From: Massilicoli timonensis
GTDB lineage: Bacteria; Bacillota_I; Bacilli_A; Erysipelotrichales; Erysipelotrichaceae
Direction: 5' to 3'
Length of the DNA stretch: 32,000 nucleotides
Assembly: GCF_900199515.1 (NCBI RefSeq)
Contig: NZ_LT963433.1
Span: 180,001 to 212,000, forward strand
Part shown: positions 573 to 30,565 of the stretch, one piece after another
Position numbering within the stretch: position 1 is the first letter of the stretch
Layout: every line of letters begins with the position of its first letter
Position numbers and translations under genes: made by a program
The notes under the pieces: model-generated
What the model was told of the DNA's origin: nothing
Seen by the model: only the letters and a program-made list of their open reading frames with translations
Databases searched by the model: none

Positions 573-3168
573 CTACTGCTCGCTTCTTCTGTTCTTGCGT
601 AACATTGCAGCGAATACGATCATACTTCCCCCTAGCAGTACATAATACATTCCCTTGCTTACTTCATCCCCTGTATGTACTGCTTCGCTCTCCTCTTTCT
701 TGATCTCCTCGATATTGCTTTCTCCCTTTTCCTCTTCATTTGGTGTATTCGGCTTTTCTTCCGGCTCTGTCGGCTTCTCCTCCGGTTCACTTGGTTTCTC
801 TTCCGGCTCTGTCGGCTTCTCTTCCTTCTGCCACATCACCTCAAATGTCCCAAACTCCTTGCTTCCTACCTCAAACTCCAATCCACCCTCTGTCTTTCTT
901 ACTTCTATCTCTCTCGCTTTGCTCTTTGCGATCTCTTCATCCAAAGCCTCTTCGCTCATCTGCATCGTGTAATCTCTTGTCAATCCCTCATAATACACGA
1001 CCGCAAACCGATCCCCTTCTTCGCTTCCTTCCGGATATGGATAATATACGCTTACCGTTTCCTTTTCTGTTCCTACCCATAAGTTCCCGTCATTTTGATC
1101 GACCAGATCCAAATACCGAAACTCTCTTTTTACTTCCTTCGTTTCATCTATCCCTTTCACTGCTTCCATTCCCTTTGCATGCAGCGCTTCCATCCGTTCT
1201 GCTGATCCCAATACCTCTTCGATCAATTCATCCCATAACAGCACGATCTTCGCATCTTCATTTACCGGATACATCGTATTCCCGTTCTTATAAAACTGCG
1301 TCCCTGCTTTTACATGTGCATGCGCTTCCTTGATCTGGCATGCTCCTTCTTCTTCATATACTCCCTTATAGATCTCACTGCTCAGTGTCTCCGCACTTTC
1401 ATCGCTTACTTCTCTTACCTTTACTTCCCCTACTGCCATCCCTTCTTCCGGTATACTCAATAAGTGTTCATCTAATCGGATCTCTTTATCATCTACTCTT
1501 GGTAATGCATACAGTGCATAGCTTCCCGCTTTCGCTGCGCTCTCTACCTTCTCTCCCTCGCTGTTTCGATATTCCCATGCAAATGGCACTCCCTCTTCTT
1601 CCAGATCCCATGCTTCCCCATCTACGCTGATCGCATAGCTTTCCAAGCCTTCTTCCCATTGCGGTTCCGGCAAGGCATCGCCATGATTGCTGGCGTCGGT
1701 TCCCGATCCTCCTTCATATGCGATCAGTTCGACTGCTTGAAGCGGTTCACTATATCCTGCATATAAGTGCAGCGTACCGTTCTCTAATGTCGTAAAGTCG
1801 ATCGTTGCTGCTTCATCAAATGGCTTCGTACATGCTTCATCTAAATACCAGCCATTGAATACGCTTCCCTCTTTGCTTAGGCTAGTAGATGGGTTATTCA
1901 TCAGAATGTCAGTTCCCGGCACTGCGGATACAGAAGCTTTTGCTTGATCGATCTCTGCTTCATTTGCATAGATAAAGTGATTGGTTTCATCATTTACAAC
2001 CGCAAATTGCTTTGTGCTTCCATCTGCAAATACACCGCCATTGGCATCAAAAGACACATTGCCAAAATAAGGGATTCTCCCTTTTATACTGTCAGGATCA
2101 TTATATCGTTCGATCAGTTTTTCATCTTCCGTAATGATAATGGTAGGAATCGGATCATCCACATGTGCATCACTGTCAAATAAATTACCATATGTTTTTA
2201 CTGAATCAAGTTGGAAATTACTTAAATCGAAATAAGTCAGACTATCACAATTCTGAAACATAGCGCTTGTATATATCGCATTTTCCATATGTAATTGATC
2301 TAAACCTTTTATTTCTTTCAGATTTTCGCATCCCTTAAACATACTGGCTGTTTGTCTTAATGATTCTGTATTAAAATAACTGAGATCAACGCTCTCTAGA
2401 CTATAACAACCTAAAAACATACCTTCAAAATCAGTTATTTTCGCTCCATCAAAAATAGCAAAATCAATGTTTTTAAGCGAACGGCAATGTGAAAACATAA
2501 AATTTGTTTCTTCTACATTACTCATATCAAGACTATCCAATCCTTTAATTGTTTTCAAATTATAACAACCATCAAATAATCTTTTCATATAAGATATTCT
2601 GCTTGTATCAAGTCCTGTTAAGTCCACGGTTTCCAAATTATGACATTCAAGAAATAGACCATCCATTGAAATCATATTTTTTGTATCTAACCCACTTAAA
2701 TCAACAGAAAACAGATTTATAAACTCACATTGAATATCATTATCTGCATAATAAAAAGCACTATCGAGACTCTCTGTACCCATTTTTACCTTTTTGTCAG
2801 TTGTTCCGACTTTCAAAGAAGTCAATTTATTAGAAAGAATCCAATCTGAAAACTCCGGAAAATCCGGATGAGGCTGCATCAAATTCTCAAACATTCTATC
2901 AAAGGTTTTAATCTCTACTGTTTTCCCTTCCTGTCCTTCAAATTCAGAAGGAATTACAACATTCACTTGATCCCCTTTGTATTTTGTTAATGTGATCTTA
3001 TCACTTGTTTCTGTATAATCCCAATCACTTAGCGTTAGGCCGCCAACCTCAGTTTCAGAGTACTGATTTACAGTACCCCCCCCCCTGGGCAAAAATCATG
3101 TTCGGTTTTGCTGTCATGCCCAGCATCAGGCATAGACTTGCCAAAAGCAACGATACTTTCTTTTTCAT
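573..3168 (-). CDS. BspA-type leucine-rich-repeat cell-surface protein; signal peptide and mature part are out of frame at a G10 tract (phase-OFF or frameshifted as sequenced)
   Basis: The main ORF 573-3092 (839 aa) has these parts: ~25-residue DUF285/BspA-type LRRs (DLSGLDTKNM..MF..C..L repeated); Listeria-Bacteroides (InlB B-type) repeat motifs (FDANGG..., NGWYLDEACTKPFD); EEKPxEP repeats; and a C-terminal AVHTGD + hydrophobic helix + RKNRRSEQ tail. It has no signal peptide and only a TTG start. A separate short ORF 3055-3168 (strong RBS GGAGGAAAAG-ATG) encodes MKKKVSLLLASLCLMLGMTAKPNMIFAQGGG. This is a classic signal peptide, and it runs into the G10 tract. Confidence 0.85.
742..832. repeat. 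About 4 tandem 21-bp repeats encoding EEKP(T/S/N)(E/T)P
   Basis: The TCCGG motif recurs at 759, 780 and 801 with a 21-nt period. The protein reads EEKPTEPEEKPSEPEEKPTEPEEKPNTP. Confidence 0.8.
3076..3085. repeat. Homopolymeric C10 (G10 on the coding strand) between the signal peptide and the mature LRR protein
   Basis: Counted directly: positions 3076-3085 are all C. With G10 the signal-peptide frame terminates at TGA 3055-3057. With G9 or G12 it would read ...IFAQGGGTVNQYSETE... continuous with the 839-aa ORF. Confidence 0.95.
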
Positions 3169-3222
3169 CTTTTCCTCCTTCTCGTCTGTTTCCTTTTACA
3201 GACGCTATCTTTGCTTGTTTAC

Positions 3223-3251
3223 ACTATACCATATTTTCCCATATTTATCTA
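3223..3251 (-). promoter_or_regulatory. Candidate sigma-A promoter for the LRR surface protein gene (TAGATA-17-TGgTATAGT)
   Basis: On the minus strand, -10 TATAGT (3223-3228) carries an extended TG. -35 TAGATA (3246-3251) follows a 17-nt spacer. The element lies about 55 nt upstream of the ATG at 3168. Confidence 0.4.
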
Positions 3252-3474
3252 CTTTTACTGTAACCGCTAACGATTATCTCAATACATTTGATAACAAATA
3301 CACTTAACATGTGCATTAAACATTCATCAAAGTAATCTTATTTCCTTACAGTGGCAGAAAAGATTTTCGCCGTTTATGAAATCGAAGATGATGAGCGCAA
3401 GCAGAAAAACTATATAATAACTTATATATGATTATAATTGCTAACGAAAAAAATCGCATCCTTTCAGACACGAT

Positions 3475-4311
3475 TTATGCTTGTTTTTGTTCACTCATAC
3501 ATACACGTTCAATGTGTATTGCCAAATAACCTGTTTCCACTTTCGGGATGCTTTGATGCAGCGTTCGCTCAATGCGTGCAATGATATGCTGGGCAACCTG
3601 ATAGGAATATGGAAAACTGTTTTGCGCATACGCCTCTATATCAAGCGTCAATTCTTCTCCTTTGCGTAAACGGGCAAGCAAATACTTCATGTGTGCCAAC
3701 AAACGAGAATAAGAAAGCGAATTGACATCAATAGATAGATTGCATTCCTCCTCCACTTGCCGAATGCTCTCATTGATGATAACTGCCACCATCATGCCTG
3801 CATCTACCTGCTCTCCCATTGCACTATGAATATGCAGCGTGATATAGCCGACCTCATCATCATTGATCTCATAGCCGCAGCGTTCACGGATCATGTTTTT
3901 TCCCTGCATTGCGATCTCATGTTCTTTAGGATACAAAAGACGAATATCGTTGACAAAAGGATTGGCGATATTCAGCCCGTTCTTGATCCGCGTGATCGCA
4001 AAAGCGATATGATCCGCCAAAGGAAGCAGGACATTACGATCAATATCCTGAAACTGCTCTTCAGCCAGCGTCAGTATTTCACTGCTGATTTCCAGATACA
4101 CTGGCTCTAAATGACGAAACACCTCTTTGGTCGAGCCTCTGCTTGTTTCCTTTTGCAGTTCATAAACCTTACCGGAATAGGGAGGATCGATCTGTTCATT
4201 GATCTTACGTCCAAAACCGATTCCTTTATCAAGAAGCAGGAGAACATGATTGTTCACTGCCTCATGCACGATGATCGCATTATGATTCAAAATCCGTATG
4301 ATCTTTGCCAT
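3475..4311 (-). CDS. glcT: PRD-domain transcription antiterminator, BglG/LicT/GlcT family
   Basis: 278 aa. The N-terminal CAT RNA-binding domain (MAKIIRILNHNAIIV...DKGIGFG) is followed by two PRD-like regions with conserved His. RBS is AAGGAGGAG. It sits immediately downstream of a PTS glucose-family permease whose leader carries a RAT element. Confidence 0.85.
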   Translation of the reverse strand: MAKIIRILNHNAIIVHEAVNNHVLLLLDKGIGFGRKINEQIDPPYSGKVYELQKETSRGSTKEVFRHLEPVYLEISSEILTLAEEQFQDIDRNVLLPLADHIAFAITRIKNGLNIANPFVNDIRLLYPKEHEIAMQGKNMIRERCGYEINDDEVGYITLHIHSAMGEQVDAGMMVAVIINESIRQVEEECNLSIDVNSLSYSRLLAHMKYLLARLRKGEELTLDIEAYAQNSFPYSYQVAQHIIARIERTLHQSIPKVETGYLAIHIERVCMSEQKQA

Positions 4312-4330: not shown

Positions 4331-6451
4331 TTATTTTACACGAATCAGCGCATCACCGACACTGACTTCTCCCAATTTCAACAATTCTAAATGATGCGTG
4401 CCTAAATTGGTAAATACCAATGGAATCGCATCTGACGATGCTTGTTCTCTTATATATTGTAAATCAAATTCCATCAGTTTTGTACCCTTTTGCACAGTTT
4501 GACCATTCTCTACCAGTACATGGAAGCCTTGTCCTTTTAAGTCTACCGTATTGATGCCGACATGAATCAGCAGCTCCACGCCCTCTTCAGAGATGAACCC
4601 GATCGCATGCTTGGTATCAAAGACAAATTGAATCTTTCCATCACAAGGCGCATATAAATTTCCATCGTGTGGGAAGATGACGACACCATCTCCCATCATC
4701 TTCTGGGCAAAGGTCGCATCCGGTGTCTCATTGATCAGCTTTGCCTCTCCGTTGATCGGAGATGTAAACACTGCTTGGATCAGTTCATGCTCCTCTTCTT
4801 TTGGTTCCTTTATTTCCACAGAGGCTAGCGGCTGTATCGCACTTGGATGATGCAGATATTCTTCCAGATCGGATTTGATGACAGATACACGCGGTCCGTA
4901 AATCACCTGCACGTTGTTGCCCTTTTTCAAGACGCCGGCTGCACCGGATTGCTTTAAGATACTTTCATCGACCTGATTCCCATCTGCTACTCCGACGCGT
5001 AAACGAGTTGCACAGCAATCGACATTCTTAATGTTTTCTACACCGCCCAGCCCCTGCACGATCAGCGCTGATAAAGCAGTTGTTGCATCTGTCGCATGCT
5101 TCGTGCTGCGGGCATTGACATCGGCTTTTGTATAAAGTTTTGTCTCTTCATCGTCATCTTCACGCCCCGGCGTTTTTAACTGGAAGCGTTTGATGAGGAA
5201 TTGGAAGATAAAATAATACAGGAAGAAATAAACGATACCGACAGGAATGATCAGCATCCAGCTGGTCTTGTCATTGCCCTGTAAAATTCCAAATAGCAGC
5301 AAGTCCAAAAGACCGCCGGAGAATGTTAAGCCTACCGCAATATTCAAAATATGAGCGATCATGTAAGCCGCACCTGCTAATACCACCTGTACGACAAACA
5401 GCATTGGCGCCACAAACAAGAAGGAAAATTCAATCGGTTCTGTTATACCGGTAAACATACTGGTAAGCGCCGCTGACAATAACAACCCGCCAACTACCTT
5501 TTTCTTCTGCGGCTTTGCACAGCGATACATCGCCAGTGCAGCTCCCGGCAGACCGAAAATCATGAAGATAAATTCACCGGAAAAATAGCGGGTCGCATCA
5601 GCGCTGAAGTGTACGACGCTTGGATCGGCAAGCTGGGCAAAGAAGATATTTTGTCCGCCTTGGATCAGCTGGCCGCCTACTTCCATCGTGCCGCCGACTG
5701 CGGTTTGCCAAAATGGCAGATAGAACACATGATGCAGTCCAAAAGGAATCAATGCACGCTTGATGATACCGAAGATCAATGTACCAAGATAACCGGTTCC
5801 GGTTACCAAAGAACCTAATGCATAAATACCGTTTTGTACCAGCGGCCAGACAAAGAACATCAAGATTCCGACTAACACAAAGACCGCAGTAGAGATGATC
5901 GGCACAAAACGCGTACCGCCAAAGAAGGAGAGCGCATTCGGCAGTTCGATCTTATAAAACTTATTATGCAGCGCCGCTACGCCCAAACCGACGATGATAC
6001 CGCCAAACACGCCCATCTGCAGCGTTTGGATGCCACACATGGAAGCGATCGTACCGCTTAAGACATGTGGTGCAATACTGCCATCTGCTAAGATCTGTCC
6101 ATTGATCGTCAATACCGCATTGATCGATACATGCATAACAAAGAAGGCAATGACTGCGGAAAGCGCCGCTACCTCTTTTTCCTTCTTCGCCATACCGATG
6201 GCGACTCCAACGGCGAAAATCAGCGGAAGGTTGTCGAAGATCGCACTACCCGCCTTGCTCATGACCGTTAAAAAACCGTGCAGCAGCGTACCATTTCCTA
6301 AAATAGATTGTAACCCATAGGAGGCGATCATCGTCTCATTGGTAAAGGAGCTTCCGATTCCTAATAATAATCCGGCGATCGGAAGAACCGCGATGGGAAG
6401 CATAAAGCTTCGTCCGATGCGTTGTAAAACGCCAAAAATTTGATCTTTCAT
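4331..6451 (-). CDS. ptsG: PTS glucose-family transporter, fused IICBA
   Basis: 706 aa. A polytopic IIC N-terminus is followed by the IIB motif NVDCCATRLRV and a C-terminal IIA-Glc domain (..LIHVGINTVDLKGQGF..). Confidence 0.85.
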   Translation of the reverse strand: MKDQIFGVLQRIGRSFMLPIAVLPIAGLLLGIGSSFTNETMIASYGLQSILGNGTLLHGFLTVMSKAGSAIFDNLPLIFAVGVAIGMAKKEKEVAALSAVIAFFVMHVSINAVLTINGQILADGSIAPHVLSGTIASMCGIQTLQMGVFGGIIVGLGVAALHNKFYKIELPNALSFFGGTRFVPIISTAVFVLVGILMFFVWPLVQNGIYALGSLVTGTGYLGTLIFGIIKRALIPFGLHHVFYLPFWQTAVGGTMEVGGQLIQGGQNIFFAQLADPSVVHFSADATRYFSGEFIFMIFGLPGAALAMYRCAKPQKKKVVGGLLLSAALTSMFTGITEPIEFSFLFVAPMLFVVQVVLAGAAYMIAHILNIAVGLTFSGGLLDLLLFGILQGNDKTSWMLIIPVGIVYFFLYYFIFQFLIKRFQLKTPGREDDDEETKLYTKADVNARSTKHATDATTALSALIVQGLGGVENIKNVDCCATRLRVGVADGNQVDESILKQSGAAGVLKKGNNVQVIYGPRVSVIKSDLEEYLHHPSAIQPLASVEIKEPKEEEHELIQAVFTSPINGEAKLINETPDATFAQKMMGDGVVIFPHDGNLYAPCDGKIQFVFDTKHAIGFISEEGVELLIHVGINTVDLKGQGFHVLVENGQTVQKGTKLMEFDLQYIREQASSDAIPLVFTNLGTHHLELLKLGEVSVGDALIRVK

Positions 6452-27136: not shown

Positions 27137-30100
27137 TTATTTTGATAAGGAATTGCTGCTGTTCTTAAAATAGCAGAATGTAGCGCTAAGTCCTGCTAAG
27201 GCTCCAAACAATAACATCCAAAGCATAACTTGGTTTGTATCATCTCCGGTTGGAACACTAGGTACCAATTCATTTAGATAACGATAACTGTAAATATCCT
27301 TATCAGGATCTACAAGCTCGTCATTGAAGAACACACCTTCCTCATTGATCTCTACCTTCAGCACTTCATCCGATAATAAGTATCCCATAGGCGCCTGTGT
27401 TTCCTTGATGTAGACAATTCCATAAGGCAAATCAGTGAATGTGGCAGTTCCTGATTCCTGATCCGCATGAACAGTACGTACTTCTTTCTTACAATCTTCA
27501 TCTTCGTACATCGTGAATGCAAAGTCTTTGGATCTAATGAGCTGATCTGTCTGTGCATCCACTTTCTGTACTTGAATGTCAGTTAAGATCTGTTCATCTT
27601 TCATTACCACTTCCTGTACCTCGCCGGTGGCTTTTACCTCGAAGATCACATCTTCCGCTAAGTGATAGCCATAAGGTGCTGCTTCCTCATGTAAGCGATA
27701 CATGCCCGGTTCTAACATCGTGATCATATGCGCTTCCTCTGTCGATGTCCAGCGTTCTACGATATTCTTTGTCTTTTCACTTGTCAAAATGAAATCTGCA
27801 CCTGCCAATGCCTTACCGGTTGTCTCATCTACTTTCAAGATCTCTACTTTGGTATAGTCATTGGTCATTTCTACTTTCTGTGTTTCTGTTGTATTGGCTA
27901 CTGTGAATTTGATCTCTTTCTCGCTTAACATATAACCAAACGGTGCGATCGTTTCCTTTAAGGTATATTCCTTTCCGACTGTTAATCCCTTGATCAGGTG
28001 TGCTTCCTCTGTGCTGACCCATTCTTCTACTACCTTTCCGTTCTCATCTAGCACCTGCAAGGTTGCGCCCTCTAACTCTTTTCCGGTCGTCAGATCGGTT
28101 TTGGAAATAAGCACTTCTGTCTGTTTGTTCGTGAATTGTTTATGCACTTCATACACTGCTTTCTGATCATCTTCCAAATCAAATTTGATCTCATAAACCG
28201 TTTCATCTAAGACATAGCCATCCAGTGTTCTTGTTTCCTGTAAAAGATAAGAAGCTCCATCTGTTCCAAGCGGTAAGCCTACGATATGGATTTCGCCTAA
28301 TTCATTTGTCATATAGTAACCGTCTTCCGAAATATCCATCGATACCGGATCTCCTGCTTGATGGATCACTTTACCGTTCTGTGGATCGATGATATCATAC
28401 TTCGTTTTCAGCTGATACTGCACACCGCTTAATAACTCCTTTGTTTCCTCGTCTGCTTTCTCGATATGGATCTCTGCGGTTGGCTTTTCATCTTTTACTC
28501 TTACGATAATGAGTGGATCGCCGTCATCATCTGCTTCCATGATACTGCCTGTGATTGTGAAAGGGATCGGATCGGTATTGAGCAGGTATCCGTTTGGTGC
28601 GGTGATCTCTCTTGCTTCATACTCTCCTGCCAATAACATCAATGGCAGCGTTACTTGTCCTTTCTTATTGGTTGTGAAAGTATCGATCCAATCTTCGCCT
28701 ACTTTCTGTTTCACATATTGTTGTTTCTTCACGTTCCAGATCTTAAAGGAAGCATTTGATAATGTGATCGGTTCTTCTGTATCAGCATCCAGCTTGATCA
28801 AGCGTAGATATGCTTTCTTCCATTCGTTCTTGATGGCATAATGGAAAGACTGATCTTGGGTACTGATCGTAAACTCCACAGATCCTTCCATCGGGATCAG
28901 ATCGACATGCGGTGTCTTGGTCTGTCTCATGACATAATCTCCGGCTGCCAATTCACCTGAAGAGGCATAGCCGGTTTTATCTGTTTTTAAGATCGCATAT
29001 TCTTTTTTAGAATACGTATCTAAATGTTTTAATGCTTCCTCAAAAGATCCGTATTGATCTACATATTTCTTTAAGATGACTGTAAACTCGGCATTAGGTT
29101 CCGGTTCCAATACACTGGTTTCTTCATCGGAATACTTATGAATTTCGATCTTACCGGTAATGACTTGATCGGATACGGTCATATTCTGAGTTACGATGCT
29201 GACTGTTTGACCGCCATAAGTAAGATCTATATTGTATTTGTTTGGATCTAATTGATAGCCGGTAGGTGCTTGGATTTCTCGGATATAATAAGCGCCCAAG
29301 TTTTGATTGAGAAAACCTGCTGTATTACCTAAAGAATCGGTCGTTGTTTGTGCAACGAGGGTATCTTTTGCATGATAGAGCTTCCCGGAGATCGGATTGA
29401 CGATATTTTCTCTTGCATAGAGGCCATAGATGGCACCTGCAAGGGTAGCGTCTCCTTGTGCTGTACTTCCGGTATCGGCATCTTGTTTCTTCAATGTGAT
29501 ATTACCTTTTTGGATTGCATTTTTTGCATTGAAAGAAACGACATCATTTGCGATGATGGTAACCTTATAGATCTTACTATCTAAGACAAGATTAGCAGGG
29601 ACATTGGTTTCCTGCACATAGAGATCTTTAGGAAGCAGATCATCGATCTGTACGGTACCATCTGATCCTGTTTTATAGGTGCCGATCGGATCTGACATAT
29701 CGCTGTTATAGGATAATGCGAAAGATGTGTTAGGCACATAGTTTCCTTCTTCATCCTGTTTTGCGATCTTCAAAGATCCTTCTTTGTTTACCTGTAACTT
29801 CAATGTAATTGATAATGGGTCTATTTTATGAAATACGGCGGTGTCTTGTGCTCCTGATTTTCTATAAACCATAGTAGTACCCAAATATTCCTTAGCGATC
29901 CGGTTAAATGTTAGAGTAACATTTTCCGGAGCACTATCAGTTGGGGTAAGCGTAATGGAATTACCGTTGCGAACAACATTGACGCCATTCTGACTGCTTA
30001 CTTCTGCGAAGTCAGAGATTACACCGTTTAGATCGGTAATGGTAATACTTTCATTAACATTTACTACTGGATTTATATTATCAAAATTTGGTTTAATGTT

Positions 30101-30565
30101 TTGACGATTGATTGCTGCTTGTACTTGTGCTTTGTAAGTAGGGTAGTCAAAGCCGGTAATGGATACCGGTGTATGTCCCATTGCCTCATAGATCATATAT
30201 TGGGTTGTAAGACGCCAATGAGTAGAATCTGAATCATTTTTATGTTTATACCACCCATAATATGCAATCTGTTCCATCTGATCTTTTACTGAATGTGAAA
30301 ATTCTTCTACTGAATAATCATTCCCATCTGCAAATGGGGTAGTAGGATCCACACAAAACGCAACCTCTCCATTCGCCGTCATCCAAAAAGCATCACCCCA
30401 AGCCGGGAATCCATTTGACATTGTGAAGCGATAAGTATATCCCGGATAGTAACCGGTTCTGACTTGATTGTTATTAGCAGCTTTGGTGCTGATTGGTGTA
30501 AAACATGTAAAGATCATAAGCAGTACACTTATGATACTGAATATTTTTTTCTTAAGTTTATACAT
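27137..30565 (-). CDS. Large cell-surface adhesin: signal peptide, N-terminal Cys/Gln (thioester-like) domain, ~8 Cna-B/SpaA-type prealbumin-fold repeats, C-terminal SVPTGD sorting-like signal
   Basis: 1142 aa.
- Signal peptide: MYKLKKKIFSIISVLLMIFTCFTPISTKA.
- Repeated modules begin (I/L)x(I/L)xKxD... and end with ...E(T/I)xAPxGY(x)L motifs, for example KETIAPFGYML, HEEAAPYGYHL, KETQAPMGYLL, REITAPNGYLL, REIQAPTGYQL.
- The C-terminus is SVPTGD followed by a hydrophobic helix and a short polar tail containing a single Lys (YFKNSSNSLSK).
- RBS is GAGGAGGAAG. Confidence 0.85.
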   Translation of the reverse strand: MYKLKKKIFSIISVLLMIFTCFTPISTKAANNNQVRTGYYPGYTYRFTMSNGFPAWGDAFWMTANGEVAFCVDPTTPFADGNDYSVEEFSHSVKDQMEQIAYYGWYKHKNDSDSTHWRLTTQYMIYEAMGHTPVSITGFDYPTYKAQVQAAINRQNIKPNFDNINPVVNVNESITITDLNGVISDFAEVSSQNGVNVVRNGNSITLTPTDSAPENVTLTFNRIAKEYLGTTMVYRKSGAQDTAVFHKIDPLSITLKLQVNKEGSLKIAKQDEEGNYVPNTSFALSYNSDMSDPIGTYKTGSDGTVQIDDLLPKDLYVQETNVPANLVLDSKIYKVTIIANDVVSFNAKNAIQKGNITLKKQDADTGSTAQGDATLAGAIYGLYARENIVNPISGKLYHAKDTLVAQTTTDSLGNTAGFLNQNLGAYYIREIQAPTGYQLDPNKYNIDLTYGGQTVSIVTQNMTVSDQVITGKIEIHKYSDEETSVLEPEPNAEFTVILKKYVDQYGSFEEALKHLDTYSKKEYAILKTDKTGYASSGELAAGDYVMRQTKTPHVDLIPMEGSVEFTISTQDQSFHYAIKNEWKKAYLRLIKLDADTEEPITLSNASFKIWNVKKQQYVKQKVGEDWIDTFTTNKKGQVTLPLMLLAGEYEAREITAPNGYLLNTDPIPFTITGSIMEADDDGDPLIIVRVKDEKPTAEIHIEKADEETKELLSGVQYQLKTKYDIIDPQNGKVIHQAGDPVSMDISEDGYYMTNELGEIHIVGLPLGTDGASYLLQETRTLDGYVLDETVYEIKFDLEDDQKAVYEVHKQFTNKQTEVLISKTDLTTGKELEGATLQVLDENGKVVEEWVSTEEAHLIKGLTVGKEYTLKETIAPFGYMLSEKEIKFTVANTTETQKVEMTNDYTKVEILKVDETTGKALAGADFILTSEKTKNIVERWTSTEEAHMITMLEPGMYRLHEEAAPYGYHLAEDVIFEVKATGEVQEVVMKDEQILTDIQVQKVDAQTDQLIRSKDFAFTMYEDEDCKKEVRTVHADQESGTATFTDLPYGIVYIKETQAPMGYLLSDEVLKVEINEEGVFFNDELVDPDKDIYSYRYLNELVPSVPTGDDTNQVMLWMLLFGALAGLSATFCYFKNSSNSLSK

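What the first reader, a model, noticed from the sequence alone, without database searches (positions are those of the whole stretch)
3055..3168. G10 homopolymer separates the signal peptide from a BspA-type LRR surface protein: candidate slipped-strand phase-variation switch (currently OFF)
What the sequence shows:
- A short ORF with an excellent RBS (GGAGGAAAAG-ATG at 3168) encodes a textbook Sec signal peptide, MKKKVSLLLASLCLMLGMTAKPNMIFA|QGGG.
- It runs straight into a run of 10 G (3076-3085, counted base by base) and stops 6 codons later.
- The 839-aa LRR protein ORF (573-3092) has no signal peptide, no ATG and no RBS of its own. It begins inside the same G tract in the neighbouring frame.
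- Removing one G (G9) or adding two (G12) fuses the two ORFs into ...IFAQGGGTVNQYSETEVGG..., a complete secreted, wall-anchored protein.

The tract sits in the coding sequence just after the predicted signal-peptidase site, so glycine-count changes there would be harmless. That placement is typical of contingency loci. Poly-G/C translational switches are well known in Neisseria, Haemophilus, Campylobacter and Mycoplasma. They are rarely described for surface adhesins of gut Firmicutes.
Basis: partly seen in the sequence, partly recalled or inferred. Interest (0 to 1): 0.8.

Follow-up and report, generated by a model that had tools for sequence, protein, structure and literature searches.

The report
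Poly-G on/off switch in surface-protein family
A run of ten G's just after the signal peptide of a leucine-rich-repeat surface protein of the gut bacterium Massilicoli timonensis is a real, hypermutable on/off switch (OFF here), and the same switch heads at least five other related genes, so this harmless gut resident varies its surface the way some pathogens and mycoplasmas do.

Summary

- **The tract.** G10 (window 3085..3076, minus strand) is the only G/C run longer than 5 in 32 kb. It separates a 37-aa signal-peptide ORF from an intact 839-aa BspA/PARCEL (DUF285) LRR ORF. G9 or G12 fuses the two.
- **Same locus elsewhere.** Independent assemblies of this chromosomal locus carry G10, G11, G12 (ON, 827 aa) and two interrupted variants.
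- **Whole family.** 96 distinct sequences imply G7 to G12, and 8 of them are ON. Alleles with no amino-acid differences over about 500 residues still differ in tract length (G7/G10/G11; G8/G10/G11).
- **Not pseudogenes.** ORFs downstream of the tract stay intact, and dN/dS is 0.10-0.32.
- **One switch, many loci.** The same module (promoter, 5'-UTR hairpin, RBS, signal peptide, poly-G) precedes different LRR cassettes at six or more chromosomal loci.

This is slipped-strand translational phase variation of a multigene surface-protein family. It is textbook in kind. Close precedents are a poly-G tract in Mycoplasma agalactiae PARCEL lipoproteins and repeat-variable BspA-like genes in Ca. M. girerdii. 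I found no report for Erysipelotrichaceae. Read-level heterogeneity, reversibility and protein-level switching were not testable. "Wall-anchored" is plausible but unproven.

The parts
3076..3085 (-). G10 homopolymer, the hypermutable switch. It encodes the last base of Gln28 plus the Gly run at the start of the mature protein. G9 and G12 are in frame (ON). G7, G8, G10 and G11 are OFF.
   Evidence: Length polymorphism from G7 to G12 in relatives.
3055..3168 (-). Truncated signal-peptide ORF, 37 aa in the G10 state. MKKK forms the n-region, VSLLLASLCLMLGM the h-region, and TAKPNMIFA|Q a putative signal peptidase I site.
   Evidence: hydropathy. The same 33-, 36- and 37-aa ORFs are called on dozens of contigs elsewhere. 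The signal peptide was judged by inspection, not by a predictor.
573..3092 (-). 839-aa BspA/PARCEL (DUF285) LRR protein ORF. It is intact but out of frame with the signal peptide. The TTG start is mechanical only.
   Evidence: dN/dS is 0.10-0.32 against other alleles.
3223..3251 (-). Predicted sigma-70 promoter: TAGATA, 17 nt spacer, TGgTATAGT (extended -10). The sequence shared between paralogous loci begins at this -35 box.
   Evidence: One search is a consensus scan, not proof. (alignment A1) shows that loci B, C and D become alignable exactly from GTAGATA onward.
3183..3204 (-). 5'-UTR hairpin CGTCTGT-aaaaggaa-ACAGACG, ending 4 nt before the GGAGG. Function unknown; mRNA stabilisation is a guess.
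   Evidence: -9.7 kcal/mol, z = -5.0; the stem is kept while the loop varies, and L025 has CGTTTGT/ACAAACG, one compensatory pair.
3174..3178 (-). Shine-Dalgarno GGAGG, 5 nt before the ATG at 3168.
   Evidence: Conserved in all intact copies.
2883..3306 (-). Conserved 5' module shared with paralogous loci: promoter, UTR, signal peptide, poly-G and about the first 65-95 codons of the mature protein.
   Evidence: blastn: L023 97.6%, L021 98.4%, L022 96.6%..
2160..2882 (-). Variable LRR cassette (PARCEL/DUF285 repeats). It differs between paralogs and between alleles at this same locus.
   Evidence: no nucleotide homology here between paralogous loci.
573..2159 (-). Conserved 3' module, 96-99% identical between paralogs, with homology ending at the stop codon. 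It comprises a Listeria-Bacteroides (Flg_new) repeat, a ~310-aa region with no family match, a Pro/Glu-rich stalk and the C-terminal anchor.
749..825 (-). 21-nt in-frame tandem repeat, 3.7 copies, encoding PEEKP(T/S)E stalk repeats. Copy number differs among alleles.
576..683 (-). C-terminal sorting-signal-like segment: AVHTGD, EVSKG, hydrophobic MYYVLLGGSMIVFAAML, then RKNRRSEQ.
   Evidence: srtB_target 13.3 bits, below the 18.15 cut-off; the window's TED/SpaA adhesin ends in SVPTGD-TM-tail, so xVxTGD may be this organism's sortase motif. Inconclusive.
3451..3476 (-). Terminator-like hairpin with a T-run after the upstream BglG-type antiterminator gene. It suggests the LRR gene is transcribed on its own.
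   Evidence: pattern scan only.

Best explanation
The G10 tract is a slipped-strand-mispairing (simple-sequence-repeat) translational phase-variation switch, that is, a contingency locus.

**How it works.** The gene has its own promoter, a 5'-UTR hairpin and a strong RBS. Translation starts at ATG 3168 and makes a Sec signal peptide. Gain or loss of G's during replication decides the frame.
- With G9 or G12 the ribosome reads on into the BspA/PARCEL LRR protein. The protein is exported and held at the cell surface by its C-terminal anchor.
- With G7, G8, G10 or G11 translation stops after 32-37 codons. This window has G10, so it is OFF.
- The tract sits just after the predicted signal-peptidase site. 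The ON lengths therefore differ only in the number of N-terminal glycines.

**It is a family.** The same switch module heads at least six chromosomal loci with different LRR cassettes. A population can therefore display different combinations of these proteins. Most loci are OFF in the dominant genotype of most samples.

**Shown here.**
- The anatomy and the frame logic.
- Tract length is polymorphic across strains at the same locus and across paralogs, and ON alleles occur naturally.
- The tract changes faster than single amino-acid substitutions accumulate.
- The coding sequence is under purifying selection.
- The switch is organised as a multi-locus module.

**Inferred.**
- The replication-slippage mechanism, reversibility and switching rate.
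- Surface display.
- The selective agent, which could be host IgA, phage or niche adhesion.
For: 1. **Outlier tract and frame logic**.
2. **Orthologous locus.** Identified by its flanking genes, it carries G10, G11, G12 (ON) and 11-nt and 8-nt interrupted variants on a 99-99.8% identical background.
3. **ON alleles verified in DNA.** L023 is G9 (818 aa), L024 is G12 (827 aa, same locus as the window) and L025 is G9.
4. **Family tally.** 96 distinct sequences give G7 1, G8 8, G9 6, G10 51, G11 28, G12 2. All three frames are used.
5. **Hypermutability.** Alleles with 0 substitutions over about 500 aa differ in tract length: P0016 G8 / P0182 G10 / P0176 G11, and P0197 G7 / P0192 G10 / P0193 G11. 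P0136 (G10) and P0145 (G12) differ by 1 substitution.
6. **Genes are maintained.** ORFs of 400-830 aa after the tract are intact in all complete copies but one. dN/dS is 0.10-0.32 in the C-terminal module, including between alleles that are both OFF (window vs L019: 23 synonymous, 9 non-synonymous changes).
7. **Same module at many loci.** An identical signal peptide plus G10 module lies at five unrelated loci, and the diverged locus of L025 makes six. Homology starts at the -35 box.
[quoted passage not shown] BspA-like genes of Ca. M. girerdii show read-level repeat-length variation (PMC5476646).
Against: - No reads were available. Heterogeneity within one clone, reversibility and switching rate are therefore not shown.
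- ON states are rare: 8 of 96 distinct sequences, against one third expected if frame were irrelevant (P about 8e-9, with non-independent samples). That fits selection against ON in dominant genotypes. It also means expression has never been observed.
- Some length differences could in principle be homopolymer consensus errors in short-read assemblies. The two interrupted tracts (G8CGG, G7TT) may be such artefacts.
- In some strains this allele is truncated by an insertion or replacement at the position equivalent to window ~2486. One degenerate copy has no ATG (L020). Individual copies are therefore dispensable.
- The signal peptide and the anchor were judged by inspection or by sub-threshold matches.
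Confidence: 0.85

Rival explanations
1. Homopolymer sequencing or assembly error. The real tract in this genome is G9 or G12, the gene is simply intact and constitutively expressed, and no switch exists.
For: - Homopolymers of about 10 bases are error-prone on some platforms.
- The window is a single consensus.
- Two relatives show odd interrupted tracts, G8CGG in L011 and G7TT in L012, which could be artefacts.
Against: - No other ORF in the 32 kb looked split. The tract is the only G/C run longer than 5, so a general indel-error problem is unlikely.
- Independent assemblies of essentially the same allele also give G10: L010 at 99.5% identity over 4.4 kb and L019 at 99.0%.
- Across SPAdes, MEGAHIT, scaffolded and NCBI assemblies the lengths span G7-G12. 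That range is too wide for consensus error at 8-40x coverage.
Confidence: 0.04
2. Decaying pseudogene family. A frameshift in a mutable tract has permanently inactivated these genes, and the tract variation is neutral drift after loss of function.
For: - 88 of 96 distinct sequences are out of frame.
- Some strains carry this allele truncated at codon 202 by foreign DNA.
- One copy (L020) lacks the ATG and RBS and has a 42-aa ORF after the tract.
- PGAP annotates several copies from internal Met codons.
Against: - dN/dS is 0.10-0.32, even between alleles that are both OFF.
- ORFs of 400-830 aa are intact in every complete copy but L020, whatever the tract length.
- ON alleles (G9, G12) occur in at least five paralog clusters. 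They are nearly identical to OFF alleles, differing by 1-4 substitutions.
- Promoter, hairpin, RBS and signal peptide are conserved in all copies.
Confidence: 0.05
3. Recoding rather than mutation. RNA polymerase slippage or ribosomal +1/-1 slippage on the G run produces full-length protein from "OFF" DNA, so G10/G11 alleles are the normal low-level expression state.
For: - G10 and G11 are the dominant states.
- tRNA-Gly can re-pair perfectly anywhere in a G run. Long homopolymers are known to allow transcriptional slippage, mainly on A/T runs (my own knowledge, not tested here).
- It would explain why OFF alleles stay under purifying selection.
Against: - Programmed recoding sites are conserved in length and frame. 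Here identical alleles occupy all three frames, from G7 to G12.
- In-frame G9/G12 alleles exist.
- No downstream stimulatory structure was looked for or seen.
- Leaky slippage may well coexist with the DNA switch as a minor contribution.
Confidence: 0.05

Closest known systems
Mycoplasma agalactiae PARCEL lipoproteins MAG1330/MAG3260, and PARCEL ORFs with 5' contingency repeats in M. capricolum (Roske et al. 2010, PMC2996958)
   Same: - Same repeat family (PARCEL = DUF285/TIGR02167).
[quoted passage not shown]
- The host lineage (Mollicutes) is, from my own knowledge, related to Erysipelotrichia.
   Different: - Those are lipoproteins of wall-less bacteria. This protein has a signal peptidase I-type signal peptide and a C-terminal TM/sortase-like anchor, and it belongs to a walled gut commensal.
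- Here one identical switch module is copied at six or more loci, with conserved 5' and 3' modules around a variable cassette.
- Comparative tract-length evidence is given here; it was not in that paper.
BspA-like surface protein family of Candidatus Mycoplasma girerdii (Costello et al. 2017, PMC5476646)
   Same: - Large BspA-like family (at least 28 copies).
- Eight genes carry length-variable repeats in or near them.
- The dominant genotype is often OFF, with minor ON variants.
- Detected from metagenomic data.
   Different: - The repeats there are mostly dinucleotide. Here it is a G homopolymer at a fixed position right after the signal peptide.
- Read-level heterogeneity was shown there and is not shown here.
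- Different host and niche.
Neisseria opa genes (CTCTT repeats) and pilC (poly-G) in the signal-peptide coding region (my own knowledge)
   Same: - Translational ON/OFF through a repeat in the leader-peptide region.
- A multigene family (about 11 opa loci) that switches independently, with hypervariable regions reshuffled by recombination.
   Different: - Gram-negative outer-membrane proteins unrelated in fold.
- A pentamer repeat for opa.
- A pathogen or pathobiont rather than a gut commensal.
Campylobacter jejuni poly-G phasome (e.g. PhasomeIt, PMC6321876; PMC3025981)
   Same: Poly-G tracts of about 8-11 bases in coding regions of surface-structure genes at many loci, with ON and OFF lengths differing by one base.
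   Different: - Those are mostly glycosyltransferase and modification genes with unrelated sequences, not a paralogous adhesin family with one shared switch cassette.
- Proteobacterial pathogen.
Streptococcus pyogenes SclB/Scl2 (CAAAA repeats after the start codon) (my own knowledge)
   Same: A Gram-positive, C-terminally anchored surface protein switched at the level of translation by a coding repeat in the signal-sequence region.
   Different: Pentanucleotide repeat, single locus, collagen-like protein, pathogen.

Membership tests
Simple-sequence-repeat (slipped-strand) translational phase-variable / contingency locus | A long simple repeat inside the reading frame near the 5' end, far longer than the genomic background | tested here: met
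   G10 at 3085..3076. The next longest G/C run in 32 kb is 5 bases. A run of nine or more G is expected 0.04 times by chance.
Simple-sequence-repeat (slipped-strand) translational phase-variable / contingency locus | Unit gain or loss toggles between a full-length ORF and early termination | tested here: met
   G9 and G12 give 864 and 865 aa. G8, G10 and G11 stop at 32-37 aa.
Simple-sequence-repeat (slipped-strand) translational phase-variable / contingency locus | Repeat length is polymorphic among closely related strains at the orthologous locus, with both ON and OFF alleles | tested here: met
   Locus A carries G10, G11, G12 (ON) and interrupted 11-nt and 8-nt forms. Alleles with zero substitutions carry G7/G10/G11 and G8/G10/G11.
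Simple-sequence-repeat (slipped-strand) translational phase-variable / contingency locus | The rest of the gene is maintained by selection despite frequent OFF states | tested here: met
   Intact ORFs after the tract. dN/dS 0.10-0.32.
Simple-sequence-repeat (slipped-strand) translational phase-variable / contingency locus | High-frequency, reversible switching within a clonal population | not testable with these tools
   No read data or cultures. It needs a read pile-up or amplicon sequencing of single-colony lineages.
Simple-sequence-repeat (slipped-strand) translational phase-variable / contingency locus | ON/OFF change in the protein or phenotype | not testable with these tools
   It needs surface proteomics, an antibody or a reporter fusion.
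BspA-like / PARCEL (DUF285) leucine-rich-repeat surface proteins | Match to the family repeat models above the curated thresholds | tested here: met
   DUF285 73.6 bits (cut-off 25) and LRR_5 32.2 bits (cut-off 27.7). TIGR02167 PARCEL 63.3 bits (cut-off 30). Sources name the homologs [quoted passage not shown].
BspA-like / PARCEL (DUF285) leucine-rich-repeat surface proteins | Export signal and surface retention | tested here: inconclusive
   The n/h/c-region signal peptide is present only in the ON frame and was judged by inspection. No predictor was available. The C-terminal TM segment and basic tail are present.
Sortase-anchored (LPXTG-type) cell-wall proteins | C-terminal sorting signal: LPXTG-like motif, hydrophobic segment, positively charged tail, recognised by the curated models | tested here: inconclusive
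   The motif is AVHTGD (AVNTGD in relatives), not LPXTG. srtB_target scores 13.3 bits against a cut-off of 18.15, and LPXTG_double 12.9 against 48. In support, the TED/SpaA adhesin in the same window ends in SVPTGD-TM-tail, and one family fragment is named "LPXTG cell wall anchor domain protein" by UniRef.
Programmed frameshift / transcriptional-slippage recoding site | A slippery site of conserved length, with the same frame relationship in all homologs | tested here: not met
   Tract length ranges from G7 to G12 and occupies all three frames among near-identical alleles.
Pseudogene | Relaxed selection (dN/dS near 1) and further disabling lesions | tested here: not met
   dN/dS 0.10-0.32. There is no second lesion in the window ORF. 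Exceptions elsewhere are the degenerate copy L020 and the insertion-truncated alleles L036-L043.

The most novel reading that the evidence does not exclude
Massilicoli timonensis, a non-pathogenic gut member of the Erysipelotrichaceae, runs a multi-locus "phasome" built from one portable switch cassette. The cassette holds the promoter, UTR hairpin, signal peptide, poly-G tract and first ~65-95 codons, and it sits in front of six or more different LRR cassettes. Independent ON/OFF switching at each locus would combine with exchange of LRR cassettes between loci through the conserved 5' and 3' modules. Together these would give Opa-like combinatorial and antigenic surface variation, held mostly OFF in the gut by host IgA or phage pressure. 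If so, multi-locus repeat-driven phase variation is not restricted to pathogens.
Probability: 0.5. Interest if true: 0.65.

Novelty: new member of a known kind. Interest (0 to 1): 0.5.

Why it matters
- **An open question becomes testable.** Phase variation in gut commensals has mostly been studied as DNA inversion, as in Bacteroides. [quoted passage not shown] Here a cultured human-gut Erysipelotrichaceae species has six or more loci with an identical poly-G switch, and public metagenomes already show every tract length from G7 to G12. Read-level analysis of those metagenomes could address the question directly.
- **Annotation.** PGAP starts several of these genes at internal Met codons. The family's secreted nature and its switch are therefore invisible in the databases.
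- **Evolution.** The parallel with poly-G PARCEL lipoproteins of mycoplasmas suggests the arrangement is old, or repeatedly evolved, in the Erysipelotrichia/Mollicutes neighbourhood.

Tried and rejected
- **Genome-contig scan with the fused protein.** It returned only distant LRR proteins from other taxa.
- **Exact look-up of the window's 839-aa ORF.** Not on record.
- **Look-ups of four paralogs on the NCBI 2.09-Mb M. timonensis contig (P0161, P0013, P0201, P0162).** Not retrievable. The within-one-genome inventory therefore rests on protein N-termini listed for that contig: P0201 implies G10, and P0161 and P0162 imply G11.
- **Metagenome contigs pattern scan.** Only 4 loci.
- **Rfam scan of the whole window.** No known RNA family. 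The UTR hairpin is not a described element.
- **The conserved ~310-aa C-terminal module.** No PDB sequence match and no Pfam hit above threshold. I did not predict a structure because it does not bear on the switch.
- **Lipoprotein reading of the signal peptide.** Rejected. ASLC has Leu at position -1 of the would-be lipobox, which is atypical (my own knowledge).
- **"Same cassette at different loci" as proof of gene conversion.** L024 (locus A) and L032 (locus D) are 97.9% identical, and L038 shows the truncated allele at locus D. I treat this only as suggestive, because the ~420-nt 5' repeat and the 1.6-kb 3' repeat could produce chimeric metagenome contigs.
Full report
**1. The observation**

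Read on the minus strand, the window has GGAGG (3178..3174) and then ATG at 3168. The ORF that follows encodes MKKKVSLLLASLCLMLGMTAKPNMIFAQGGG, runs through exactly ten G's (3085..3076), and stops six codons later at 3055. An 839-aa ORF (3092..573) opens mechanically at a TTG 7 nt before the tract, in the neighbouring frame. It has no Shine-Dalgarno sequence and no signal peptide.

Editing the tract in silico gives one ORF of 864 aa for G9 and 865 aa for G12. G8, G10 and G11 terminate after 32-37 codons.

The run is not a chance feature. In 32 kb the next longest G/C run is 5 bases, seen nine times. A run of nine or more G is expected 0.04 times in dinucleotide-preserving shuffles.

The large ORF is a BspA/PARCEL leucine-rich-repeat protein:
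- DUF285 73.6 bits and LRR_5 32.2 bits, plus a Listeria-Bacteroides repeat.
- PARCEL repeat TIGR02167 63.3 bits.

**2. Organism and context**

The closest proteins are named [quoted passage not shown]. M. timonensis is a human-gut isolate (PMC6796691) placed in the Erysipelotrichaceae.

The rest of the window is ordinary chromosome. Upstream on the same strand lie a PTS EIICBA gene and a BglG/LicT-type antiterminator. Further away are SUF, transketolase, FeoB, a DinG-type helicase and a thioester/SpaA adhesin. No other ORF in the window looked split, which argues against a general indel-error problem.

**3. Comparative test of the switch**

*Homolog N-termini.* None of the 17 closest homologs began with the signal peptide. 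Their N-termini were the two alternative frames read through the same DNA:
- MPRGGGTVNQ... corresponds to G10.
- ...DFCPGGGTVNQ corresponds to G8.
- ...DFCPGGGGTVNQ corresponds to G11.

*Cluster members.* Listing members of the 90% clusters added true ON forms. ...IFAQGGGTVNQ is G9 and ...IFAQGGGGTVNQ is G12. It also added the orphan 33-, 36- and 37-aa signal-peptide ORFs, which are called on dozens of contigs.

*Tally over 96 distinct sequences:*

| Tract | G7 | G8 | G9 | G10 | G11 | G12 |
|---|---|---|---|---|---|---|
| Sequences | 1 | 8 | 6 | 51 | 28 | 2 |

*DNA-level checks.*
- L023 has G9 (ON, 818 aa), at a paralogous locus.
- L024 has G12 (ON, 827 aa).
- L025 has a pure G9, in a diverged lineage.

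*The window's own locus.* L024 lies at the same chromosomal locus as the window, with PTS and antiterminator upstream and Fic and thiolase downstream. Using the antiterminator as an anchor that is independent of the tract, this locus shows:
- G10 in L009 and L010.
- G11 in L013.
- G8-C-GG in L011.
- G7-T in L012.

L010, L011, L012 and L013 are 99.5-99.8% identical to the window. L019, found by a pattern search, is also G10 at 99.0% identity.

*Rate.* Alleles with no amino-acid differences over about 500 residues carry different tracts:
- P0016 G8, P0182 G10, P0176 G11.
- P0197 G7, P0192 G10, P0193 G11.
- The G12 ON allele P0145 differs from the G10 allele P0136 by one residue.

The tract therefore changes faster than a single amino-acid substitution accumulates in the rest of the gene. 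That is the signature of a hypermutable contingency repeat.

**4. Not pseudogenes**

- After the tract, every complete copy keeps an intact ORF of about 400-830 aa whatever the tract length. The one exception is L020, which also lacks the ATG and RBS. It shows what a decayed copy looks like.
- Pairwise dN/dS in the conserved C-terminal module is 0.10-0.32, including between alleles that are both OFF. Window vs L019 has 23 synonymous and 9 non-synonymous changes. Window vs L010 has 10 and 7.

**5. Anatomy of the module**

The same signal peptide plus G10 sequence sits at unrelated chromosomal loci:

| Locus | Flanking genes |
|---|---|
| A (this window) | PTS, antiterminator ... Fic, thiolase |
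| B | sigma factor ... MgsA, NusG_II |
| C | ABC/FtsX ... OTCase |
| D | PheS/PheT ... metallophosphoesterase |
| E | Fe-hydrogenase ... arylsulfotransferase |
| F (diverged lineage) | glycogen phosphorylase ... pullulanase |

*5' module.* Between paralogous loci the homology starts about 85-138 nt upstream of the ATG. In loci B, C and D it starts at the predicted -35 box. It then runs about 285 nt into the gene. The predicted promoter is TAGATA-17-TGgTATAGT, at 3251..3223.

*Variable middle and 3' module.* Homology is lost over the LRR cassette. It resumes for about 1.6 kb and ends at the stop codon.

*Other elements.*
- The 5'-UTR holds a 7-bp hairpin (3204..3183) of -9.7 kcal/mol with z = -5.0. 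Its stem is kept while its loop varies, and L025 has one compensatory pair.
- A terminator-like hairpin follows the antiterminator gene, so the LRR gene is probably its own transcription unit.

*Allele types.* Locus A carries at least four allele types in different samples, with post-tract ORFs of 833, 795, 454 and 402 aa. The 454-aa type recurs in at least five independent assemblies. L024 at locus A is 97.9% identical over 809 aa to L032 at locus D. That fits exchange of cassettes between loci. Because the flanking modules are long repeats, I cannot exclude chimeric contigs.

**6. Mechanism**

The best explanation is slipped-strand mispairing in the G tract during replication. This toggles translation between the signal-peptide-only ORF and the full secreted protein.

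The tract lies just after the predicted IFA|Q cleavage site. G9 and G12 therefore differ only by one N-terminal glycine, and both forms occur naturally.

ON states are depleted: 8 of 96, against one third expected if frame were irrelevant (P about 8e-9). Distinct sequences are not independent samples. The result fits most loci being OFF in the dominant genotype. The same was reported for Ca. M. girerdii BspA-like genes (PMC5476646).

The selective agent (IgA, phage or adhesion niche) is inference only.

**7. Rivals**

- *Assembly error.* Unlikely. Independent assemblies of the same allele give G10, and the family spans G7-G12 across different assemblers and NCBI genomes.
- *Pseudogene.* Contradicted by section 4.
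- *Programmed recoding.* Contradicted because the tract length is not conserved and identical alleles occupy all three frames. Leaky slippage as a minor contribution cannot be excluded.

**8. Surface anchoring**

The C-terminus is AVHTGD, then EVSKG, then a hydrophobic stretch, then RKNRRSEQ. It scores below the NCBIfam cut-offs for sortase signals (srtB_target 13.3 bits against 18.15). The thioester/SpaA adhesin in the same window ends in SVPTGD-TM-tail, so xVxTGD may be the local sortase motif. "Wall-anchored" is plausible but not established. A plain TM anchor would equally hold the protein at the surface.

**9. What is known, and novelty**

The kind of system is textbook.
[quoted passage not shown] They also noted contingency repeats 5' of PARCEL ORFs in M. 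capricolum (PMC2996958).
- Costello et al. showed read-level repeat variation in BspA-like genes of Ca. M. girerdii (PMC5476646).
- Neisseria opa and pilC, and the Campylobacter poly-G phasome, are functional analogues.

Searches of the held library found nothing on phase variation for Massilicoli or Erysipelotrichaceae. I therefore file this as a new member of a known kind.

Its modest extra value has three parts:
- It is a multi-locus repeat-driven system in a non-pathogenic gut commensal, and a recent review flags that as an open question (PMC11868660).
- It has a clean modular switch cassette.
- Public annotation hides it, because PGAP starts several copies at internal Met codons.

**10. 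Limits**

- No reads, cultures or expression data were available.
- The complete isolate genome could not be fetched.
- The signal peptide was judged by inspection.
- The sequences in the tally are not independent.

Noticed in passing
window 749-825 (minus-strand coding): A 21-nt in-frame tandem repeat, 3.7 copies, encodes PEEKP(T/S)E stalk repeats. Otherwise near-identical alleles differ in length by multiples of 7 aa, so this looks like a second, in-frame length-variable repeat in the same gene.
   Followed up: partly
window 3183-3204 (minus strand); also L025 ~4815-4835: A 7-bp hairpin lies in the 5'-UTR, ending 4 nt before the RBS (-9.7 kcal/mol, z = -5.0). The stem is conserved across loci while the loop varies, and the diverged copy L025 has one compensatory pair. 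No Rfam match; function unknown.
   Followed up: partly
L036 4607-8600; L037-L043; equivalent to window ~2486: In a set of samples this same LRR allele stops at codon 202 at one shared breakpoint. In L036 it is followed by foreign DNA carrying aminoglycoside nucleotidyltransferase-type genes (Adenyl_transf; Polbeta/AadA_C), a zeta-toxin/AAA_33-like gene and PNP_UDP_1. This looks like a resistance-gene island inserted into, or replacing part of, the gene.
   Followed up: partly
window ~850-1780 (fused-protein residues ~470-780): A module of about 310 aa is 96-99% conserved between paralogs. It has no PDB sequence match and no Pfam hit above threshold. Its fold and function are unknown.
   Followed up: partly
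window 27137-30565 (minus strand): A 1142-aa adhesin with a thioester (TED) domain and eight SpaA-type domains ends in SVPTGD-TM-tail. This is the same xVxTGD pattern as the LRR protein, which hints at a non-canonical sortase motif in this organism.
   Followed up: partly
L011 ~6226-6237; L012 ~6226-6234; protein P0001: Interrupted tracts occur: G8-C-GG in L011, and G7-TT in L012. The G7-TT form is also implied by the N-terminus CPGGVTVNQ of P0001 in another paralog cluster. They are either point mutations that would stabilise the tract or sequence-specific short-read errors after poly-G.
   Followed up: no
L020 ~3600-3740 (minus strand of the locus): A degenerate copy of the 5' module. The ATG and RBS are replaced by unrelated sequence, there is an extra T in the signal-peptide region, the tract is G8, and only 42 codons stay open after it. 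This is a real pseudogene copy, useful as a contrast.
   Followed up: partly
L013-L018 contig ends (equivalent to window ~3067-3243): Many metagenome contigs end inside the shared 5' module or just after the tract. That is expected for a multi-copy repeat. It means this family is systematically fragmented or mis-started in assemblies and annotations.
   Followed up: partly
L010 and L012 46-620; L015 37-610 and 1211-2453: In some metagenome assemblies the neighbouring GrpB gene is split (47+135 aa, or 109+88 aa), and the GFO/IDH oxidoreductase gene is split (367+37 aa). Real frameshifts or assembly errors; not examined.
   Followed up: no
L024 (locus A) vs L032 (locus D); L038 vs L036: The same LRR allele type (97.9% identical over 809 aa) appears behind different chromosomal flanks in different samples. 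This is either exchange of cassettes between loci or chimeric assembly across the repeated modules.
   Followed up: partly
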